Sequence record: NZ_CP120951.1
DNA from: a plasmid
Strand: one strand, 5' to 3'
DNA: 64,000 bases
The notes beneath the pieces were generated by a model. It searched no databases and was not told the origin of the DNA. It saw only the letters and a list, made by a program, of their open reading frames with translations. This document shows, in pieces, positions 35,830 through 52,546 of the stretch. The position numbers and the translations under genes were made by a program. Numbering within the stretch: the stretch's first letter is position 1; the number at the start of each line of letters is the position of its first letter.

Positions 35830-35945
35830 TATTCCTCATCTCGGCAAGCTCTATCAAAGCCCCGTGGTTGGATCGCAACTAACCTGGTTAGGTCGGTAAC
35901 GGTGTTGACGCACCCTTACCGACCGTTACTACTCTGCCTCCAGCG
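35830..35945 (-). promoter_or_regulatory. probable promoter/operator region of the pil-virB super-operon
   Basis: Non-coding stretch of about 115 bp upstream of the first operon gene with imperfect inverted repeats (GGTAACGGTG...CACCCTTACC; TAACCTGGTTA). Confidence 0.3.
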
Positions 35946-36251
35946 CTACTTCCCCTCTTCTCCCTGGTGTCCGCCGTCCTGAGCCGATTCGGCCTCAGCT
36001 GCAAACTTCACCTTTATTTCGGACAACTTGGGACAGGCTTCTTTTAAAACTCCCATCACTCGGTCAAAGTCACGCCATGTGCGTTGCTTACCGCGTTGCC
36101 CCTGAAGGGTGAACAGTTTCTCTTGCTCGAAGAGGAAGACCTGCACTATCCACAGCGGCCGGCCCTCTTCAACGATTTCAACAACCCAGATTTCACATTT
36201 CTCCCCTGTGCGGTATGCGAAAGCCAGTTCTTGCAGTGATATGCCTGGCAT
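35946..36251 (-). CDS. hypothetical protein (101 aa)
   Basis: Internal ATG preceded by a strong RBS AGAAGGAAGAGGGGAAGG; the upstream ATG at 36296 lacks an RBS. Confidence 0.45.
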   Translation of the reverse strand: MPGISLQELAFAYRTGEKCEIWVVEIVEEGRPLWIVQVFLFEQEKLFTLQGQRGKQRTWRDFDRVMGVLKEACPKLSEIKVKFAAEAESAQDGGHQGEEGK

Positions 36252-36329
36252 CCTTCCCCTCTTCCTTCTGAGGTGTAAAAGGGAAAGTATCGCCATGACT
36301 CCGCTAGAAGATCGCCACTCGTTGTAAAG

Positions 36330-36355
36330 TATACAAACTTGCAGGAAAGTTTATA
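36330..36355. promoter_or_regulatory. imperfect inverted repeat (operator-like) in AT-rich divergent promoter region
   Basis: TATACAAACTT-gcagg-AAAGTTTATA lies between divergent genes 35946..36251 (minus) and the xre-like gene (plus); the 325-bp intergenic region is AT-rich. Confidence 0.35.
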
Positions 36356-36576
36356 ACTTTTATCCTACTCGCATTCATCTGACATAGCAACAACGATTCG
36401 ACCTTCAAGCAACAAAACTCCGTGCGCCGCCTGTATCTTGAGCATGTTGAGATGTGTCACCCCGACCACCAAGTCAGTTGCGACAACGATCTACAATCTT
36501 GATTACAGATCGCTCAACAATAGTCATAAAAATACCTCATAAAAGGTTGCTGATCAACCATAATTGGGGTATTTCG

Positions 36577-37005
36577 ATGGGCTATCTTACGCCGATGGAT
36601 AATTCTAATCAGGGCCAGGGCCGGACTCCCTTCGGAGAACGCCTTCTCGCTGCACGGCGGAGAAAGGGCTTTTCGCAGAAGCAGGTCGAGGCACGTGTCG
36701 GCATCTCGCAAAGCAACCTGGGAGCCTTGGAGACAAAGGGCACCGGCTCGGCCTTCACTGTCGCGCTTGCGTTGCTCTACGGAGTTAGCCCCGTATGGCT
36801 TGCGATGGGCAAGGGCTCCATGGAAGGGACGTCCCCTATACCCGACTGGCTTGCCGAGCTCAATGAGCGCGAGCTTGACGCAGTACGACACTTTGCTGCT
36901 GGCTTGGTCGCAGCGCGCCAGATCCATGGGGGGAAATCACGCACCACGCACGTTAAGCCTCTGCCGCCGCCATCCCCTGACGCGCCCGCTGACCAAACCG
37001 ACTGA
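36577..37005 (+). CDS. XRE-family HTH transcriptional regulator
   Basis: HTH_3 signature RLLAARRRKGFSQKQVEARVGISQSNLGALETKGTG; no S24 peptidase domain; 142 aa. Confidence 0.75.
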   Translation: MGYLTPMDNSNQGQGRTPFGERLLAARRRKGFSQKQVEARVGISQSNLGALETKGTGSAFTVALALLYGVSPVWLAMGKGSMEGTSPIPDWLAELNERELDAVRHFAAGLVAARQIHGGKSRTTHVKPLPPPSPDAPADQTD

Positions 37006-37017
37006 AGTAGATTCCGA

Positions 37018-37968
37018 TTACCGAAAGCCCGTTCGGTCATCCATGGCGAACCCGCCACTGATCGCATCGTGCAACTCATACGCATCTTGGACTGCACGAG
37101 CAGCGAGCCGCTGTGCCTGCAATACAATCCGTGGATCAATTGCGCCTCCCTCCATTGAGGCCAGCAACATTGACGCACCGTTTGTCAAAGCAGCCCAGTC
37201 CACAATCCGGGCTGTTAAAGCGCGCAAGTAAGCACCGTTGGCCACTGCGGCTTCATGACCAGCATCTCCGGCCACGTCCGTCCCAGTTTCTTCGATAAGT
37301 TCTGCGCCCGAGCATAGAATTAACTCCGGCTCGCCGCTTTGCAGCGACGGAACAAATCGATTTCGAAACAAGAACGGCCGCGCCCCGCCAACCGTGTTGA
37401 TCATTCGACGAACATCGTGGATGCTGCCCTGCTCAAAGAAGCGGGATATGTTGGTCCGCGACTCATGAGCGGCGGACGCAGACATGAAGAGATCGTGCGC
37501 GCTCTCGCCCATCACGTCCTCCTCTCGATACCCCGTGTACTCCTCTGCCCGCCGGTTAAATCGCTGAATCATGCCGCTCTTGTCCAACACGACCACAATC
37601 GCATTGGTCTCTGATACCAGCCCCTCCGAAAAGGCCATTGCGCGCATCGTGATATTTGCGACCGACTCGGGATCCCATAGCGAAGCGGCGACCCCCGCCC
37701 ATTCACCAGTGTGGATTTTTTTCCCGATGAGGTATAAGTCGACGTGCTCACCATAGATCTGAACGTTCAGCGTCACCATCGAGGTTGCGCCCGTCAAGCC
37801 GCGAATCCGCTCGGCTTCGCGACCAATCACCTGGATAGGGATCGTCGGACCGAACTCGTCACCGGCCGCGGACAGCGTCAACACACGATCATGATTGGAA
37901 TATCGCCAAATTGGCGTTGGGGTCCCAAAGTGATTCTTGAGCCCCGCAAATATGGTCTTCTCACTCAT
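37018..37968 (-). CDS. three-domain regulator-like protein with a central PAS-like domain
   Basis: The N-terminal 100 aa is paralogous to the adjacent 125-aa protein (LYLIGKKIHTGEWAGVAASLWDP vs FYLVGKRITDRIWRGVASVDP); the middle is PAS-like (VVVLDKSGMIQRFNRRAEEYTGYREEDVMGESAHDLF); the C-terminus is unknown. Confidence 0.55.
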   Translation of the reverse strand: MSEKTIFAGLKNHFGTPTPIWRYSNHDRVLTLSAAGDEFGPTIPIQVIGREAERIRGLTGATSMVTLNVQIYGEHVDLYLIGKKIHTGEWAGVAASLWDPESVANITMRAMAFSEGLVSETNAIVVVLDKSGMIQRFNRRAEEYTGYREEDVMGESAHDLFMSASAAHESRTNISRFFEQGSIHDVRRMINTVGGARPFLFRNRFVPSLQSGEPELILCSGAELIEETGTDVAGDAGHEAAVANGAYLRALTARIVDWAALTNGASMLLASMEGGAIDPRIVLQAQRLAARAVQDAYELHDAISGGFAMDDRTGFR

Positions 37969-38017
37969 TGCACACCCACAGCTTGTCACCACCTACATTG
38001 CCAGACCGAGATCACCC

Positions 38018-38395
38018 CTAGCTTGCGCGACGTACCGGGAACCTCACGACGTTACTGGCCTCTCGCTCTTCCCATGCAGAGATCATCGATCCATTCGGGA
38101 CAAGGCCCGGGTCAACAGAAGCGACCCCTCGCCAGATTCGATCAGTAATCCTCTTCCCCACCAGGTAGAACACCAGCGGTTCCCCTGAGATCGTGATCCT
38201 GCATGATGTTTTCGTAACTTCACCGCCGAAGGCGCGCACCTGCGCAGCTTGCTCGCGATCAAGCTCTGCGGCAATACTCGTCACACGAGGATTACCACCG
38301 AGACCAATGATGTTACTGTCGTCAGTTAACGTCCAGACAGGGCACGCTGTCCCCGTACGCAACAAAAAGAAGTCCTCAACCCCGAAGCCAGTCAT
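38018..38395 (-). CDS. small protein paralogous to the N-terminal domain of the downstream PAS protein
   Basis: 125 aa sharing the motif with 37018..37968; co-directional, 50-nt gap. Confidence 0.5.
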   Translation of the reverse strand: MTGFGVEDFFLLRTGTACPVWTLTDDSNIIGLGGNPRVTSIAAELDREQAAQVRAFGGEVTKTSCRITISGEPLVFYLVGKRITDRIWRGVASVDPGLVPNGSMISAWEEREASNVVRFPVRRAS

Positions 38396-38682
38396 CTAAC
38401 ACCTTTATTGATTAATTATTCAAACTTGATAAGACGCTCACCCCGCACACCTTAGCCGCATAACATGCAAATCGCATAACGGCGCAAAGGTACGCGAACT
38501 TTAGGCCGGACGCTGCATTGCTCCGAATAAGTCGTCGTTCGTTGACGCCTGGCACGCGCCGAATCCGCCCCATCGTGCCGAGCCACGCCAATCTTAGCCG
38601 ACCGCGAGCGGCCTTATCGGACCACATCAGCTGTCGGCACAATTTGGCGGCGGATTTGCGCGCACATGCCCGCCGTCATACA

Positions 38683-38698
38683 CTGTATATTTATACAG
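38683..38698. promoter_or_regulatory. LexA-binding SOS box (CTGT-N8-ACAG)
   Basis: aCTGTATATTTATACAGgt matches the gamma/beta-proteobacterial LexA consensus TACTGTATATATATACAGTA at 16 of 20 positions. It lies 76 nt upstream of gene 38774..39100 and about 290 nt upstream of the divergent minus-strand pair. Confidence 0.55.
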
Positions 38699-38773
38699 GT
38701 GTTTTGGCCGGCACACGACGACAAACGTCGATCGGTAGCCGTCAACGACTAGCACAACGGAGCGGCTTACTCG

Positions 38774-39100
38774 ATGACTTCACGGACCCACAAAGACGGC
38801 GACGTCTTGCTCGACGACGGCACTTACTTCATCGAAAGCGATGCAGCCGCCGGCCAGGACGGCAGGACCGGTCGCCTGATGCGTCGGTGCGATCGCGCAT
38901 CGCCCGACGCTAGCGCAGTTGAATGTGTCGGCATCTACGAATTGACGATGGGCGGCAAATGGCGTGTGACCATAACGTCATACTATGACGCTCGGACTGA
39001 TTCGGAAACGCACGAGATCGGCGCCTTCGAGAACAGACTGGACGCAATCTGCACGCTCTGGAAAAGTCGGCACGATGCAATCGGTAGGTATGCAAACTGA
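38774..39100 (+). CDS. hypothetical protein downstream of SOS box
   Basis: 108 aa; clean ATG; protein-like composition. Confidence 0.45.
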   Translation: MTSRTHKDGDVLLDDGTYFIESDAAAGQDGRTGRLMRRCDRASPDASAVECVGIYELTMGGKWRVTITSYYDARTDSETHEIGAFENRLDAICTLWKSRHDAIGRYAN

Positions 39101-39160
39101 ACTGGCCAGCCGACAAACGCCGATTGCTCTCAAGCACTTCCTACCTCTCCGTGATCCAGC

Positions 39161-39433
39161 ATGCAGAACTACAGTCGCCCGGAACGCACGCCGCTTACGG
39201 CTGCTGAATTACGGCAGATCTATGATGAGAACCCCACACCAGCGGTCCGCACGCTGCTGTGGGAAATCCATCGATTACGCCTTACTCTGATACACGTGAA
39301 CGATGTGCGGCGCTGTTTTCGCAGTCAGCCAACGAGTGTTCCCACGCCGCTTTGGGATCTGTTCCTCAAGCGCCTAAACGCAGAGCCTTGCCTGCGTGAC
39401 GGTAACGGATCGTCTCGTAGAAATTATTCCTAG
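39161..39433 (+). CDS. hypothetical protein
   Basis: 90 aa; co-directional with 38774..39100. Confidence 0.35.
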   Translation: MQNYSRPERTPLTAAELRQIYDENPTPAVRTLLWEIHRLRLTLIHVNDVRRCFRSQPTSVPTPLWDLFLKRLNAEPCLRDGNGSSRRNYS

Positions 39434-48015: not shown

Positions 48016-48018
48016 ACC

Positions 48019-49857
48019 ATGGCAAATCGCCCCCAGGAGCTGGCCCAAATGCCGTTGCGCAGCTACAGCCGCACCGAATTCACGGCGCTGCGCGCGCGCG
48101 TGAAAGGCCTCCCGCTCGAGACGATCGAGCGGCTGTACTTCGATCGCGACGCCGACGACCCGGTCGACGTCGCGCAGCTGCTGCGCACGATGCGCGACGA
48201 TCTGGTCGCGGCCGCGCTGCGCGATGGTTCTCCGGTATTGAAGTCGCACCTGCAGGCGGCGATCGAAAAATACGGCGAGCCGCGCCTCACGCCCGTCTCA
48301 CTGCAGCTGATCGAGCAGGTCGCCGCGCAGTGGGCCGTTGCCACGCCGCAGGCCGAGCACCCGGTCGGCCGCTGGTTCCGGCCGCTCGTCGCGGCACGCC
48401 TGGCGGGCGAGGAGATCCACACGCTCGGCGAGCTCGTCGCGCTGGTGAATCGCCGCGGCGGGCAGTGGTGGCGCTCGGTGCCGCGCATCGGCGCCGGCCG
48501 GGCGCGCGTGCTGGTCGCCTGGTTGCGGCGCCACGCCGCGTCGATCGGCACGGCCGTCGGGCCGGACGTCGACGCCGGCGACGCGCTGGCGCCGACCTCG
48601 GCCAGCATCACGGCCGGCGCGGGACAACTGGCGCCGCTCGAGCGCCTGGCGCTACCGGAGGCCCTGTCCGGCGCGCACGGGGCGAACCGGGCGTCGGTGT
48701 TTGCGTATCTGGGCGCTGCGCACGACCTGGACGCGGTACGGGCGTATCTGCACCGCTACGACGATCGGCCGGCCACGCAGCGCGCGTACACACGCGAGCT
48801 CGAGCGCCTGGTGCTCTGGTGCGTGGCCGAGCGCGGCGTCGCGCTGTCGTCGATGCGGGTCGAGGACTGCAACGCGTATAAGGCGTTTCTCGCCGCGCCA
48901 TCTGAGCGTTTTACGGGCTCGCCCGTCGCCCGCAGGAGCGGCCAGTGGCGACCGTTCGCGCCAGGCGGCCTGGCACTGGAAAGCCAGCGCTACGCAGTGC
49001 GCCGGATTCGCGCGGCGTTCGCCTGGCTGGTCGCCGTGCGGTATCTGGCCGGCAACCCGTGGGCGGCCGTCACCGATCCGAACGTCGTCACGCGTGCGCG
49101 CAAGCTGCAGGTCGAGCGCTCGTTGCCGCTCGACCTGTGGACCCGCGTGCGCGCGACGCTGGCCGAACGCAGCGAGCTGCAGGGCCCGAGCGGGCCGCGC
49201 TGGCGCGCCGCGCGCGCGTTGTTGCTGGTGATGGGCGACGGCGGGTTGCGGATTGCCGAGGCGGCCGGCGTGGCGCGCGCGGCCCTCGCTTGGCTGCCGG
49301 CCGACGACGACACGCCGGCCAGCTGGTTGCTCGAGGTGATCGGCAAGGGCAACAAGCAACGCTTCGTGCCGATCAGCGACGAGTGCGTCGACGCGCTGCG
49401 TGCGCACTGGCGCGATCGCGGCCAGGATCTCGACGCGGTGGCCGCGACGGAACCACCCGGGTTGCCGCTGGTGGCGCCGCTGGTCATCCCGCCTACGCCG
49501 CGGGCCCGCGAGAAATTTGGCGAGCCCGATGAGGCCGGCGACCAGCTCAAGCCCCGCGCCCGGGGCTACTCGGTGCGCGGGGCGCGCGGGCTGACGCAGT
49601 GGGCGATCGCGCAGCTGCTCGAGGTGATGCCGGATCTGAGCGATGCCGATCGGCGCAAGCTGTCCGACACGTCGCCGCACGCTTTCCGGCACACGGTCGG
49701 CACGCAGATGCTGGCGGCTGGCGTCGCGCTCGAAGTCGTGCAGCGCACGCTCGGGCATGCATCGCTTGGCACGACGTCCATCTACGTGTCGCCGGAAGAG
49801 GCGCGGATGCGTCGCGAGGCGGCGAAGTACCACGCGCGGCTCACTCGCGAATCCTGA
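48019..49857 (+). CDS. int: large tyrosine recombinase/integrase (612 aa) with approx. 300-aa N-terminal extension
   Basis: C-terminal catalytic region GLRIAEAAGV...HAFRHTVGTQMLAAGVALEVVQRTLGHASLGTTSIYV (R...H-x-x-R...Y); last gene of the upstream operon. Confidence 0.85.
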   Translation: MANRPQELAQMPLRSYSRTEFTALRARVKGLPLETIERLYFDRDADDPVDVAQLLRTMRDDLVAAALRDGSPVLKSHLQAAIEKYGEPRLTPVSLQLIEQVAAQWAVATPQAEHPVGRWFRPLVAARLAGEEIHTLGELVALVNRRGGQWWRSVPRIGAGRARVLVAWLRRHAASIGTAVGPDVDAGDALAPTSASITAGAGQLAPLERLALPEALSGAHGANRASVFAYLGAAHDLDAVRAYLHRYDDRPATQRAYTRELERLVLWCVAERGVALSSMRVEDCNAYKAFLAAPSERFTGSPVARRSGQWRPFAPGGLALESQRYAVRRIRAAFAWLVAVRYLAGNPWAAVTDPNVVTRARKLQVERSLPLDLWTRVRATLAERSELQGPSGPRWRAARALLLVMGDGGLRIAEAAGVARAALAWLPADDDTPASWLLEVIGKGNKQRFVPISDECVDALRAHWRDRGQDLDAVAATEPPGLPLVAPLVIPPTPRAREKFGEPDEAGDQLKPRARGYSVRGARGLTQWAIAQLLEVMPDLSDADRRKLSDTSPHAFRHTVGTQMLAAGVALEVVQRTLGHASLGTTSIYVSPEEARMRREAAKYHARLTRES

Positions 49858-52472: not shown

Positions 52473-52546
52473 GCGGGCGTAGCTCAATGGTAGAGCAACA
52501 GCCTTCCAAGCTGATGACGAGGGTTCGATTCCCTTCGCCCGCTCCA
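52473..52546 (+). tRNA. tRNA-Gly (anticodon UCC)
   Basis: Cloverleaf with GCGGGCG/CGCCCGC acceptor stem, GCTC..GAGC D-stem, CTTCCAA anticodon loop, GAGGG-TTCGATT-CCCTT T-arm, discriminator U and an encoded CCA. Confidence 0.85.

What the first reader, a model, noticed from the sequence alone, without database searches (positions are those of the whole stretch)
37018..38395. Paralogous-domain pair: PAS-containing three-domain protein plus a small protein sharing its N-terminal domain
The 125-aa protein and the first 100 aa of the 316-aa PAS-like protein share a distinctive motif ([FY]YL[IV]GK[KR]I...W.GVA) not assignable to a known family. They lie next to the XRE repressor and the SOS box. 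A sensor (PAS) plus a decoy or partner sharing one domain is a plausible new regulatory switch for element activation.
Basis: partly seen in the sequence, partly recalled or inferred. Interest (0 to 1): 0.7.

Follow-up and report, generated by a model that had tools for sequence, protein, structure and literature searches.

The report
Plasmid copies of quorum-signal receptor
A Burkholderia conjugative plasmid carries two cut-down relatives of RpfR, the host's receptor for the fatty-acid quorum signal BDSF, next to a repressor at the head of its transfer genes, so the plasmid probably uses the host's cell-to-cell signal to decide when to transfer.

Summary
ORFs 38018-38395(-) (125 aa) and 37018-37968(-) (316 aa) share an N-terminal domain (28% identity over 104 aa, E 5e-11).

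The GGDEF-EAL enzyme half of RpfR is missing. An unassigned helical hairpin of about 70 aa takes its place.

In all 13 loci with upstream DNA (Burkholderia, Paraburkholderia, Trinickia) the order is small FI gene, then FI-PAS-hairpin gene. An orthologous convergent XRE repressor follows in 13 of 14 loci. It usually heads VirB-type, F-type or type IVb pilus transfer operons. None of these loci encodes the synthase RpfF. All three genes are under purifying selection (dN/dS about 0.09).

Most likely this is a plasmid-borne BDSF-sensing module that controls conjugation. Ligand binding, RpfF binding and action on the XRE repressor are inferred, not shown. The SOS box is real but not part of the conserved module. 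I found no published description.

The parts
38018..38395 (-). Gene for a 125-aa stand-alone FI-domain protein. It consists of an FI domain (aa 1-95), a short helix (aa 102-109) and a basic tail (...NVVRFPVRRAS).
37018..37968 (-). Gene for a 316-aa FI-PAS-helical-hairpin protein, i.e. RpfR without its GGDEF-EAL half. An alternative GTG start at 37992 is not supported by homologues.
37669..37968 (-). FI domain of the large protein (aa 1-100).
37291..37617 (-). BDSF-type PAS domain (aa 118-226). Ligand-contact codons: S170 (37459-37461), N173 (37450-37452), R188 (37405-37407), N203 (37360-37362).
37042..37257 (-). C-terminal predicted helical hairpin (aa 238-309). This is the output or interaction domain and belongs to no known family.
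   Evidence: Model helices H238-274 and H279-309, pLDDT about 65-69. No Pfam or PDB match apart from a weak DUF6415 hit (6 of 15 members, best E 1.2e-3). Conserved W258, L268, L269, A292, D295, L299.
36595..37005 (+). XRE/CI-like HTH repressor gene (136 aa), convergent with the large gene (12 bp between the two genes). It has a conserved C-terminal extension of about 60 aa and no S24 peptidase domain.
   Evidence: Pfam HTH_19 E 1.3e-11. Orthologue found in the same convergent position in 13 of 13 loci tested by phmmer. Start set by the conserved M(D/E)NS motif and by the RefSeq call in L021. dN/dS 0.08.
36297..36594 (.). Divergent control region between the XRE gene and the first transfer-operon gene. 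Candidate operators: GGTTG-N5-CAACC inside a 25-nt-arm inverted repeat (36525-36579), an inverted repeat at 36487-36512, and AAGTATACAAACTT / AAGTTTATAACTT (36325-36362).
   Evidence: Inverted repeats. The 36531-36579 block is conserved down to the 68%-identity relative L006. Distant relatives carry 2-3 CGGAATTCCG or GCGGAAAACCGATAT repeats at the same place. No binding has been tested.
35946..36296 (-). 116-aa ORF, the first gene of the long minus-strand transfer region (lytic transglycosylase, type IVb pilus genes, then VirB-type T4SS). In relatives a Cro-like HTH gene holds this position.
   Evidence: Cro-like HTH genes in L004 and L005.
38683..38698 (+). LexA-type SOS box CTGTATATTTATACAG. 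It is neighbouring and probably belongs to the + strand ORF 38774-39100, not to the conserved module.
   Evidence: Conserved in L021 only, and not found upstream of the small gene in other loci.

Best explanation
The two genes are plasmid-borne paralogues of RpfR, the Burkholderia receptor for the fatty-acid quorum signal BDSF (cis-2-dodecenoic acid).

The 316-aa protein is the sensor half of RpfR: an FI domain plus a BDSF-binding PAS domain. The c-di-GMP enzyme half (GGDEF-EAL) has been replaced by a helical hairpin of about 70 aa. The 125-aa protein is an FI domain on its own.

Together with the convergent XRE/CI-like repressor they form a conserved three-gene module at the head of the plasmid's transfer (pilus/T4SS) genes.

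Proposed mechanism. The plasmid makes no signal of its own and listens to BDSF made by the host's chromosomal RpfF. BDSF binding to the PAS domain changes the helical hairpin. The hairpin then acts on the XRE repressor, as an anti-repressor or co-repressor, and so sets transcription of the transfer operon. The small FI protein modulates this step. It does so either by binding the host synthase RpfF, as the RpfR FI domain does, or by pairing with the large protein.

Shown here: the homologies, the folds, retention of the ligand residues, the synteny, purifying selection, and the absence of rpfF.

Inferred: BDSF binding, any contact with RpfF or the XRE repressor, control of transfer, and the sign of the response.
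For: Homology and fold:
- Large protein against RpfR PAS 6dgg, E 6e-28; against FI 6dga, E 1e-9. Small protein against 6dga, E 9.5e-9.
- NCBIfam PRK10060 positions 8-227, E 2.5e-62.

Ligand site:
- Mutating RpfRBc S168, N171, R186 or N201 gives the phenotypes expected for loss of BDSF response (PMC6361424).
- These map to S170, N173, R188 and N203, which are invariant or nearly so in 32 family members.
- The fifth contact (Y183 in Cronobacter) is F in B. cenocepacia RpfR itself.

Precedent: an RpfR(FI-PAS) construct was made to obtain the BDSF-bound form and co-purified with RpfF.

Synteny:
- The small FI gene lies directly upstream in 13 of 13 loci, and the XRE orthologue is convergent in 13 of 14.
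- VirB-type, F-type or type IVb pilus transfer genes follow the XRE gene's divergent promoter.
- Relatives have a CI/Cro-like layout with repeated palindromes.

Taxonomic range: only Burkholderia, Paraburkholderia and Trinickia. RpfF/RpfR are reported as conserved across the Burkholderia cepacia complex, including B. contaminans.

No rpfF homologue occurs in the window or in any mobile locus.

dN/dS is 0.08-0.09 for all three genes.

In the one locus where the XRE gene is replaced by a different regulator gene (L019), the hairpin sequence is also strongly diverged.
Against: - No experiment or multimer model links the large protein to the XRE repressor or to transfer. The adjacency could reflect co-inheritance only.
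- The hairpin model has only moderate confidence (pLDDT about 65-69) and no known relatives.
- The same four PAS residues are conserved in RpfR homologues generally, and E. coli, which has the homologue Gmr, makes no DSF. The residues therefore indicate fatty-acid binding, not BDSF specificity.
- One member (Trinickia, L016) sits in a chromosome with no T4SS nearby.
- No XRE-type operator was recognised upstream of the small-large operon.
- The FI 'DSN' motif, conserved in RpfR and in the small proteins, is degenerate in the large family. The large protein's FI domain may therefore no longer bind RpfF.
Confidence: 0.55

Rival explanations
1. Host manipulation rather than self-regulation. Both FI domains bind the host synthase RpfF and throttle BDSF synthesis, and the PAS domain may also soak up BDSF. 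Less BDSF means less RpfR phosphodiesterase activity, more c-di-GMP and more biofilm, which favours plasmid maintenance or surface mating. The XRE neighbour would then be an independent repressor.
For: The RpfR FI domain binds and inhibits RpfF, and deleting it raises BDSF and lowers c-di-GMP. Both plasmid proteins have the FI fold of the RpfF-bound structure. The small family keeps the RpfR-like DSN motif. The mobile loci carry no rpfF.
Against: This does not explain the strict linkage to a convergent XRE gene at the head of transfer operons of three different types. It does not explain the conserved novel C-terminal hairpin. It does not explain why BDSF-contact residues are kept if sensing is not needed.
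Confidence: 0.2
2. The small protein is a dominant-negative or adaptor partner of the large protein, not an RpfF binder. It keeps the FI domain, the linker (N-cap) helix and a remnant of the first PAS strand. It would pair with the large protein and block or tune its dimerisation or output.
For: The small protein's tail (DPGLVPNGSMISAWEE..NVVRFP) aligns with the large protein's FI-PAS linker helix and first PAS strand (DPESVANITMRAMAFSEGLVSETNAIVVV). A helix is predicted at aa 102-109. A small FI gene was never seen without an adjacent FI-PAS gene, whether truncated or full length.
Against: Nothing shows that FI domains or these linkers pair. The tail has lower confidence (pLDDT 59-66). The small FI domain is closer to chromosomal RpfR FI (34%) than to its neighbour's FI (28%) and keeps the RpfR-type DSN motif. 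That fits retention of the ancestral partner.
Confidence: 0.3
3. The PAS domain senses something other than BDSF, such as a saturated or other fatty acid that reports host lipid metabolism. The module would then be a metabolic switch, not a quorum-sensing switch.
For: The RpfR PAS domain also binds C12:0 tightly. The authors speculate that E. coli Gmr, in a host without DSF, responds to C12:0. PAS identity to RpfRBc is only 50%.
Against: [quoted passage not shown] The family is confined to genera whose members have RpfF/RpfR.
Confidence: 0.2
4. The genes are decaying fragments of a captured rpfR gene and have no function.
For: The large protein lacks the enzymatic half of RpfR, and the small one looks like a 5' gene fragment.
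Against: dN/dS is 0.09 for both. Both ORFs are intact across relatives down to 38-48% identity. The truncated clade is monophyletic. The C-terminal domain is conserved and novel. The models are confident.
Confidence: 0.02

Closest known systems
RpfR (BCAM0580) of Burkholderia cenocepacia, RpfR of Cronobacter turicensis, and E. coli PdeR/Gmr (NCBIfam PRK10060)
   Same: Same FI domain and same BDSF-binding PAS domain, with the four validated ligand residues. The large protein is 36% (FI) and 50% (PAS) identical to RpfRBc. Same host genus.
   Different: No GGDEF or EAL domain, so no c-di-GMP turnover or sensing. A helical hairpin of about 70 aa takes their place. Not next to rpfF. Plasmid-borne. 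Accompanied by a stand-alone FI paralogue and an XRE repressor. Scores 211 bits against the family cut-off of 782.
Accessory full-length RpfR paralogues of Burkholderia (P0056, P0058, P0088), each with a small FI gene and a LuxR-type solo
   Same: They are the sister clade of the truncated family in a rough NJ tree. A small FI gene lies directly upstream. They sit on contigs with ParA/ParB, integrase or Tn3 genes and no rpfF.
   Different: They keep GGDEF-EAL and are followed by an Autoind_bind regulator gene instead of a convergent XRE gene. As far as I found, they are also undescribed.
Quorum-controlled conjugation switches: pLS20 Rco(XRE)/Rap/Phr, ICEBs1 ImmR/ImmA/RapI-PhrI, Ti-plasmid TraR/TraI/TraM (from my own knowledge, not tested here)
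   Same: An element-encoded signal receptor sits next to an XRE-type repressor that gates transfer genes, and cell-cell signalling decides when to transfer.
   Different: Those elements encode their own signal (Phr peptide, AHL synthase). This module has no synthase and would read a chromosomal host signal of a different chemical class (a DSF-family fatty acid) through unrelated proteins.
[not shown]
   Same: A mobile element carries a homologue of a host PAS-domain quorum receptor and eavesdrops on a host-made autoinducer to decide when to move.
   Different: That case is a phage lysis-lysogeny decision. The receptor is itself a DNA-binding transcription factor and the signal is DPO. There is no synthase-binding domain and no small paralogue.
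[not shown]
   Same: A PAS-like domain protein that regulates conjugative transfer genes.
   Different: Only a remote fold resemblance. TraJ has its own HTH and no FI domain or known ligand. It is not homologous at sequence level.

Membership tests
RpfR/PdeR c-di-GMP phosphodiesterase (NCBIfam NF007474 / PRK10060) | N-terminal FI domain | tested here: met
   [not shown]
RpfR/PdeR c-di-GMP phosphodiesterase (NCBIfam NF007474 / PRK10060) | Fatty-acid/BDSF-binding PAS domain with Ser, Asn, Arg and Asn contacts | tested here: met
   [not shown]
RpfR/PdeR c-di-GMP phosphodiesterase (NCBIfam NF007474 / PRK10060) | GGDEF and EAL domains, and a full-length score at or above 782 bits | tested here: not met
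   The match covers only profile positions 8-227 of 663, at 211 bits. No GGDEF or EAL hit in Pfam. The protein ends after a hairpin of about 70 aa.
RpfR/PdeR c-di-GMP phosphodiesterase (NCBIfam NF007474 / PRK10060) | Gene adjacent to the DSF synthase gene rpfF | tested here: not met
   tblastn with RpfFBc hits only the chromosomal locus L020, not the window or any mobile locus.
FI (RpfF-interaction) domain, PDB 6DGA/6DGN | Profilin-like fold: alpha1, beta1-3, alpha2, beta4-6 | tested here: met
   [not shown]
FI (RpfF-interaction) domain, PDB 6DGA/6DGN | Binds RpfF and inhibits its thioesterase activity | not testable with these tools
   The interface residues are given only in a figure (S2B) of PMC6361424, and no multimer prediction is available. 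Indirect evidence: the DSN motif is kept in the small family and degenerate in the large family.
PAS domain (Pfam PF13426, PF00989, PF08448; TIGR00229) | Score above the curated gathering thresholds | tested here: met
   31.7/27, 31.5/22.6, 29.4/23.1. TIGR00229 37.6/22.9.
CI/Cro-type XRE repressor switch of a mobile element | XRE HTH repressor gene divergent from the genes it gates, with repeated palindromic operators between them | tested here: inconclusive
   HTH_19 E 1.3e-11. Relatives have 2-3 CGGAATTCCG palindromes and a Cro-like divergent gene. The window has other inverted repeats, partly conserved. No binding data.
CI/Cro-type XRE repressor switch of a mobile element | S24 (LexA/CI) autocleavage domain for SOS induction | tested here: not met
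   Only HTH families match. The C-terminal 60 aa match no peptidase family.
Self-signalling quorum-controlled conjugation (TraR/TraI, Rap/Phr type) | The element encodes its own signal synthase or pro-peptide | tested here: not met
   No RpfF homologue in the window or related loci. Peptide or AHL synthases were not searched for specifically.

The most novel reading that the evidence does not exclude
Recipient sensing by silencing the donor. The stand-alone FI protein binds the host synthase RpfF and shuts down BDSF production in plasmid-carrying cells. The FI-PAS-hairpin receptor then mainly detects BDSF coming from plasmid-free neighbours and lifts XRE repression, so transfer genes fire only when recipients are near. 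This would be a Gram-negative, fatty-acid-signal counterpart of the enterococcal pheromone plasmids. It would also be the first case of a plasmid hijacking both the synthase and the receptor side of a host quorum-sensing circuit.
Probability: 0.12. Interest if true: 0.85.

Novelty: new variant of a known kind. Interest (0 to 1): 0.62.

Why it matters
In Burkholderia cepacia complex pathogens, DSF-family signalling is known to control biofilm, virulence and c-di-GMP. In the literature I searched it has not been linked to horizontal gene transfer.

A plasmid-encoded, enzyme-less RpfR derivative wired to a repressor at the head of transfer operons would be a new output for the BDSF signal. It would be a clear case of a mobile element eavesdropping on, and possibly interfering with, a host quorum-sensing circuit.

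The work also shows that the FI domain is rare: 103 clusters among 1.84 billion representative proteins. It exists as a diverse family of stand-alone small proteins, always paired with an FI-PAS gene. That gives the RpfR field a natural experiment on what the FI domain does.

The hypotheses are directly testable with assays that already exist for RpfR and RpfF.

Tried and rejected
- SOS control of the pair. The LexA box is real. It is conserved only in the 93%-identical plasmid, is absent upstream of the small gene elsewhere, and lies nearer a + strand ORF. I rejected it as part of the module.
- No conserved His was seen in the hairpin that would make it a histidine-kinase DHp or HPt domain (reading of alignment A2).
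- Promoter and terminator scan of 35900-39200: nothing above chance.
- Rfam scan of the whole window: only a tRNA, far from the locus.
- Phage collection: no relative of the large protein.
- RpfF-interface residues of the FI domain are only in a figure, not in the text. Interface conservation could therefore be judged only indirectly.
- A linked-chain 'pseudo-multimer' prediction (small + large, or hairpin + XRE) was considered and not run. The tool returns no PAE or contacts and rejects sequences not found in the window.
- XRE operator upstream of the small-large operon: none shared with the XRE-proximal repeats in relatives. A TTGA-N8-TCAA palindrome just before the small gene's ribosome-binding site in the window and L002 is noted but unsupported.
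- Literature searches found no description of the truncated RpfR, of stand-alone FI proteins, or of DSF-controlled conjugation. The 2026 review lists only RpfR, BCAM0227 and DsfR as BDSF receptors.
Full report
1. WHAT IS THERE

The finding's coordinates match two minus-strand ORFs. The small ORF is 38018-38395 (125 aa). The large ORF is 37018-37992; homologues and RefSeq place its start at the ATG at 37968, giving 316 aa. BLASTP aligns the small protein with the first 100 residues or so of the large one: 28% identity over 104 aa, E 5e-11. Profile HMMs of each family find the other. The middle of the large protein passes the Pfam PAS thresholds. Both genes are under strong purifying selection: dN/dS is 0.09 against the copies in NZ_CP073668.

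2. THE SHARED DOMAIN IS KNOWN

Pfam has no model for it. NCBIfam PRK10060 (cyclic di-GMP phosphodiesterase PdeR/Gmr/RpfR) matches the large protein over profile positions 8-227 of 663 (E 2.5e-62) and the small one over positions 13-95 (E 2.9e-10).

Against the PDB:
- Large protein aa 125-232 match the RpfR PAS domain (6dgg/6dgj, E 6e-28).
- Large protein aa 20-103 match the RpfR FI domain (6dga/6dgn, E 1e-9).
- Small protein aa 14-93 match the same FI domain (E 9.5e-9).

AlphaFold models agree:

Waldron et al. 2019 (PMC6361424) showed three things. RpfR is the receptor of the Burkholderia fatty-acid signal BDSF. Its PAS domain binds BDSF. Its previously overlooked N-terminal FI domain binds and inhibits the BDSF synthase RpfF.

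3. WHAT IS KEPT AND WHAT IS LOST

I fetched chromosomal rpfR and rpfF of B. cenocepacia (L020). The four residues whose mutation blunts the BDSF response (RpfRBc S168, N171, R186, N201) align with S170, N173, R188 and N203 of the large protein. These are invariant or nearly so in 32 family members. The fifth crystal contact (Y183 in Cronobacter) is Phe in RpfRBc itself.

Identity to RpfRBc:
- Large protein FI: 36%.
- Large protein PAS: 50%.
- Small protein FI: 34%, which is higher than small against large (28%).

After the PAS domain there is no GGDEF or EAL. Instead there are about 85 residues predicted as two long helices (238-274 and 279-309; pLDDT about 65-69). They carry conserved positions W258, L268, L269, A292, D295 and L299. 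No convincing Pfam or PDB relative was found.

The small protein is an FI domain, then a short helix, then a basic tail. The tail aligns with the large protein's FI-PAS linker helix and first PAS strand. So the small gene looks like an old duplication of the 5' end of an FI-PAS gene.

4. CONTEXT

The window is a Burkholderia plasmid. It is 100% identical over the locus to B. contaminans NZ_CP082810 and 93% identical to a B. aenigmatica plasmid.

Gene order:
- KorA/ParB/ParA genes (-).
- Two small ORFs (+).
- Small FI gene (-) and large gene (-).
- XRE gene (+), convergent with the large gene; 12 bp separate the two genes.
- A 298-bp control region.
- A minus-strand region of more than 30 kb that starts with a 116-aa ORF and runs through a lytic transglycosylase gene, type IVb pilus genes and a VirB-type T4SS.

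The XRE start is fixed at 36595 by the conserved M(D/E)NS motif and by RefSeq. The XRE protein has an HTH_19 domain, a conserved C-terminal extension and no S24 peptidase domain.

5. CONSERVATION OF THE MODULE

The large protein has 36 homologue clusters at 90% identity. All are 243-348 aa, and all named ones come from Burkholderia, Paraburkholderia or Trinickia. Eight PLSDB plasmids carry it, including symbiosis plasmids of P. phymatum and P. phenoliruptrix. No phage does.

Across the loci fetched:
- The small FI gene lies directly upstream on the same strand in all 13 loci that include upstream DNA. Two more loci are cut by a contig end.
- An orthologous XRE gene lies convergent just downstream in 13 of 13 loci tested by phmmer. 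Between -4 and 28 bp separate the two genes.
- L019, a prophage- or ICE-like region of a B. ubonensis chromosome, has a different regulator gene plus a Cro-like gene. Its large protein has a diverged hairpin.
- Beyond the XRE gene come transfer genes of different kinds: VirB-type (L004, L005, L014, L015), F-type (L003), or type IVb pilus plus VirB (window and L002). The Trinickia copy is chromosomal with no T4SS nearby.
- In the VirB-type relatives the XRE gene is divergent from a 76-87-aa Cro-like HTH gene. Two or three CGGAATTCCG palindromes (or GCGGAAAACCGATAT repeats) lie between them. This is a CI/Cro-like layout.
- The window's clade has other repeats. A GGTTG-N5-CAACC core within a long inverted repeat (36525-36579) is conserved down to the 68%-identity relative.

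6. THE FI DOMAIN IN GENERAL

An FI profile searched against 1.84 billion representative proteins finds only 103 clusters:
- About 11 full-length RpfR-like proteins.
- About 8 truncated proteins of roughly 300 aa.
- Many fragments.
- At least 25 genuine stand-alone FI proteins of 110-140 aa with W[RK]GVAS and a ..NV[VI]....R tail. The named ones are Burkholderia or Paraburkholderia.

A rough NJ tree puts the truncated family as one clade. Its sister is a set of accessory full-length RpfR paralogues (P0056, P0058, P0088), separate from canonical chromosomal RpfR. Each of those accessory paralogues also has a small FI gene directly upstream and a LuxR-type solo downstream, on contigs with ParA/ParB, integrase or Tn3 genes. 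So the small-FI/FI-PAS pairing predates the loss of GGDEF-EAL.

None of these mobile loci, nor the window, encodes an RpfF homologue.

Column statistics show that the DSN motif in the beta1-beta2 turn is conserved in RpfR (78/78/69%) and in the small family (85/92/66%). It is degenerate in the large family (25/51/-). This suggests that the small protein, more than the large one, keeps the ancestral FI function.

7. MECHANISM

Best-supported reading (confidence about 0.55 for the functional part; about 0.97 for the homology): a plasmid-borne BDSF-sensing module that gates transfer genes.

- The large protein binds host-made BDSF through its RpfR-type PAS pocket.
- Having lost the c-di-GMP enzymes, it signals through the helical hairpin, most plausibly by contacting the adjacent XRE repressor. 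That repressor has no autocleavage domain and therefore needs some other inducer.
- The small FI protein tunes the system, either through host RpfF or through the large protein.

The following steps are inference from synteny and from the published properties of RpfR domains: BDSF binding, RpfF binding, any XRE contact, control of transfer, and the sign of the response.

Rivals:
- Pure host manipulation: RpfF inhibition leading to less BDSF and more c-di-GMP and biofilm.
- The small protein as a dominant-negative partner of the large one.
- A non-BDSF fatty-acid ligand.
- Gene decay, which selection and conservation exclude.

8. COMPARISON AND NOVELTY

The large protein fails membership of the RpfR/PdeR equivalog: no GGDEF-EAL, 211 bits against a cut-off of 782, no rpfF neighbour. 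It is a clear paralogue of the RpfR sensor half. In effect it is a natural version of the RpfR(FI-PAS) construct that was made to obtain the BDSF-bound form and co-purified with RpfF.

Functionally it resembles quorum-gated conjugation switches (pLS20 Rco/Rap/Phr, ICEBs1, Ti TraR) and the phage VP882 VqmA-Phi eavesdropping receptor. Those comparisons come from my own knowledge. It differs from them in signal class, in proteins, and in lacking its own synthase.

Literature searches found nothing on these proteins or on DSF-controlled conjugation. A 2026 review lists only RpfR, BCAM0227 and DsfR as BDSF receptors. I rate it a new variant of a known kind, interest 0.62.

9. THE SOS BOX

CTGTATATTTATACAG at 38683-38698 is a perfect LexA-type site. 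It lies 288 bp from the small gene's ATG and 76 bp from the + strand ORF 38774-39100. It is conserved only in the 93%-identical plasmid and is absent from the module elsewhere. It is a neighbour, not a part.

Noticed in passing
window 52473-52546 (+): A complete tRNA-Gly(TCC) gene (Rfam 73.8 bits; ARAGORN) lies inside what is otherwise a circular plasmid. It is about 2.6 kb from a 612-aa tyrosine integrase gene (about 48018-49856) and next to a GC spike (0.72 at 48-50 kb). tRNA-Gly is a classic ICE integration target, so the replicon may be, or may contain, an integrative element.
   Followed up: no
window about 9283-30744, compared with NZ_CP082810: The 49.3-kb B. contaminans plasmid that matches the window at 100% lacks about 21.5 kb (the VirB T4SS and most type IVb pilus genes) and is typed non-mobilizable. 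The window is the intact version, about 70.8 kb if the remainder equals CP082810.
   Followed up: partly
L017 7001-10429; L018 7001-10491; L022 6572-10032: Accessory full-length FI-PAS-GGDEF-EAL (RpfR-like) paralogues in Burkholderia-type contigs each have a stand-alone FI gene directly upstream and a LuxR-type (Autoind_bind) solo directly downstream. This second, apparently undescribed three-gene module would link BDSF-type and AHL-type receptors.
   Followed up: partly
L004 9379-9472; L005 2068-2148; L007, L008, L012 upstream of the XRE gene: Two or three copies of the palindrome CGGAATTCCG (GCGGAAAACCGATAT in L009 and L011) lie between the XRE gene and a divergent Cro-like 76-87-aa HTH gene that leads the VirB operon. 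This is a CI/Cro-style switch. The window's clade uses different repeats and a non-HTH 116-aa first gene.
   Followed up: partly
window 37006-37017, and the equivalent gap in all loci: The large gene and the XRE gene converge, with only -4 to 28 bp between the two genes in every locus. No terminator was predicted. Overlapping convergent transcription (transcriptional interference or antisense) may be part of the switch.
   Followed up: no
window 38018-38395; L001 14120-14494; L021 22070-22874: The small FI ORF is intact and under purifying selection. It is nevertheless missing from the PLSDB gene tables of NZ_CP082810 and NZ_CP091649 (those tables are incomplete, so it may be annotated in the original records). 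It is annotated as a hypothetical protein in NZ_CP073668.
   Followed up: partly
window 38683-38698 and 38774-39433 (+): A perfect LexA box lies 76 bp upstream of two small + strand ORFs (108 and 90 aa) of unknown function. This may be an SOS-induced plasmid gene pair. In the related plasmid NZ_CP073668 an SOS-response-associated peptidase gene occupies this side of the module.
   Followed up: no
window 38408-38423: The palindrome TTGAATAATTAATCAA (TTGA-N8-TCAA) lies immediately upstream of the small gene's ribosome-binding site. It is conserved as TTGAATAGCTAATCAA in L002. It may be an operator for the small-large operon.
   Followed up: no
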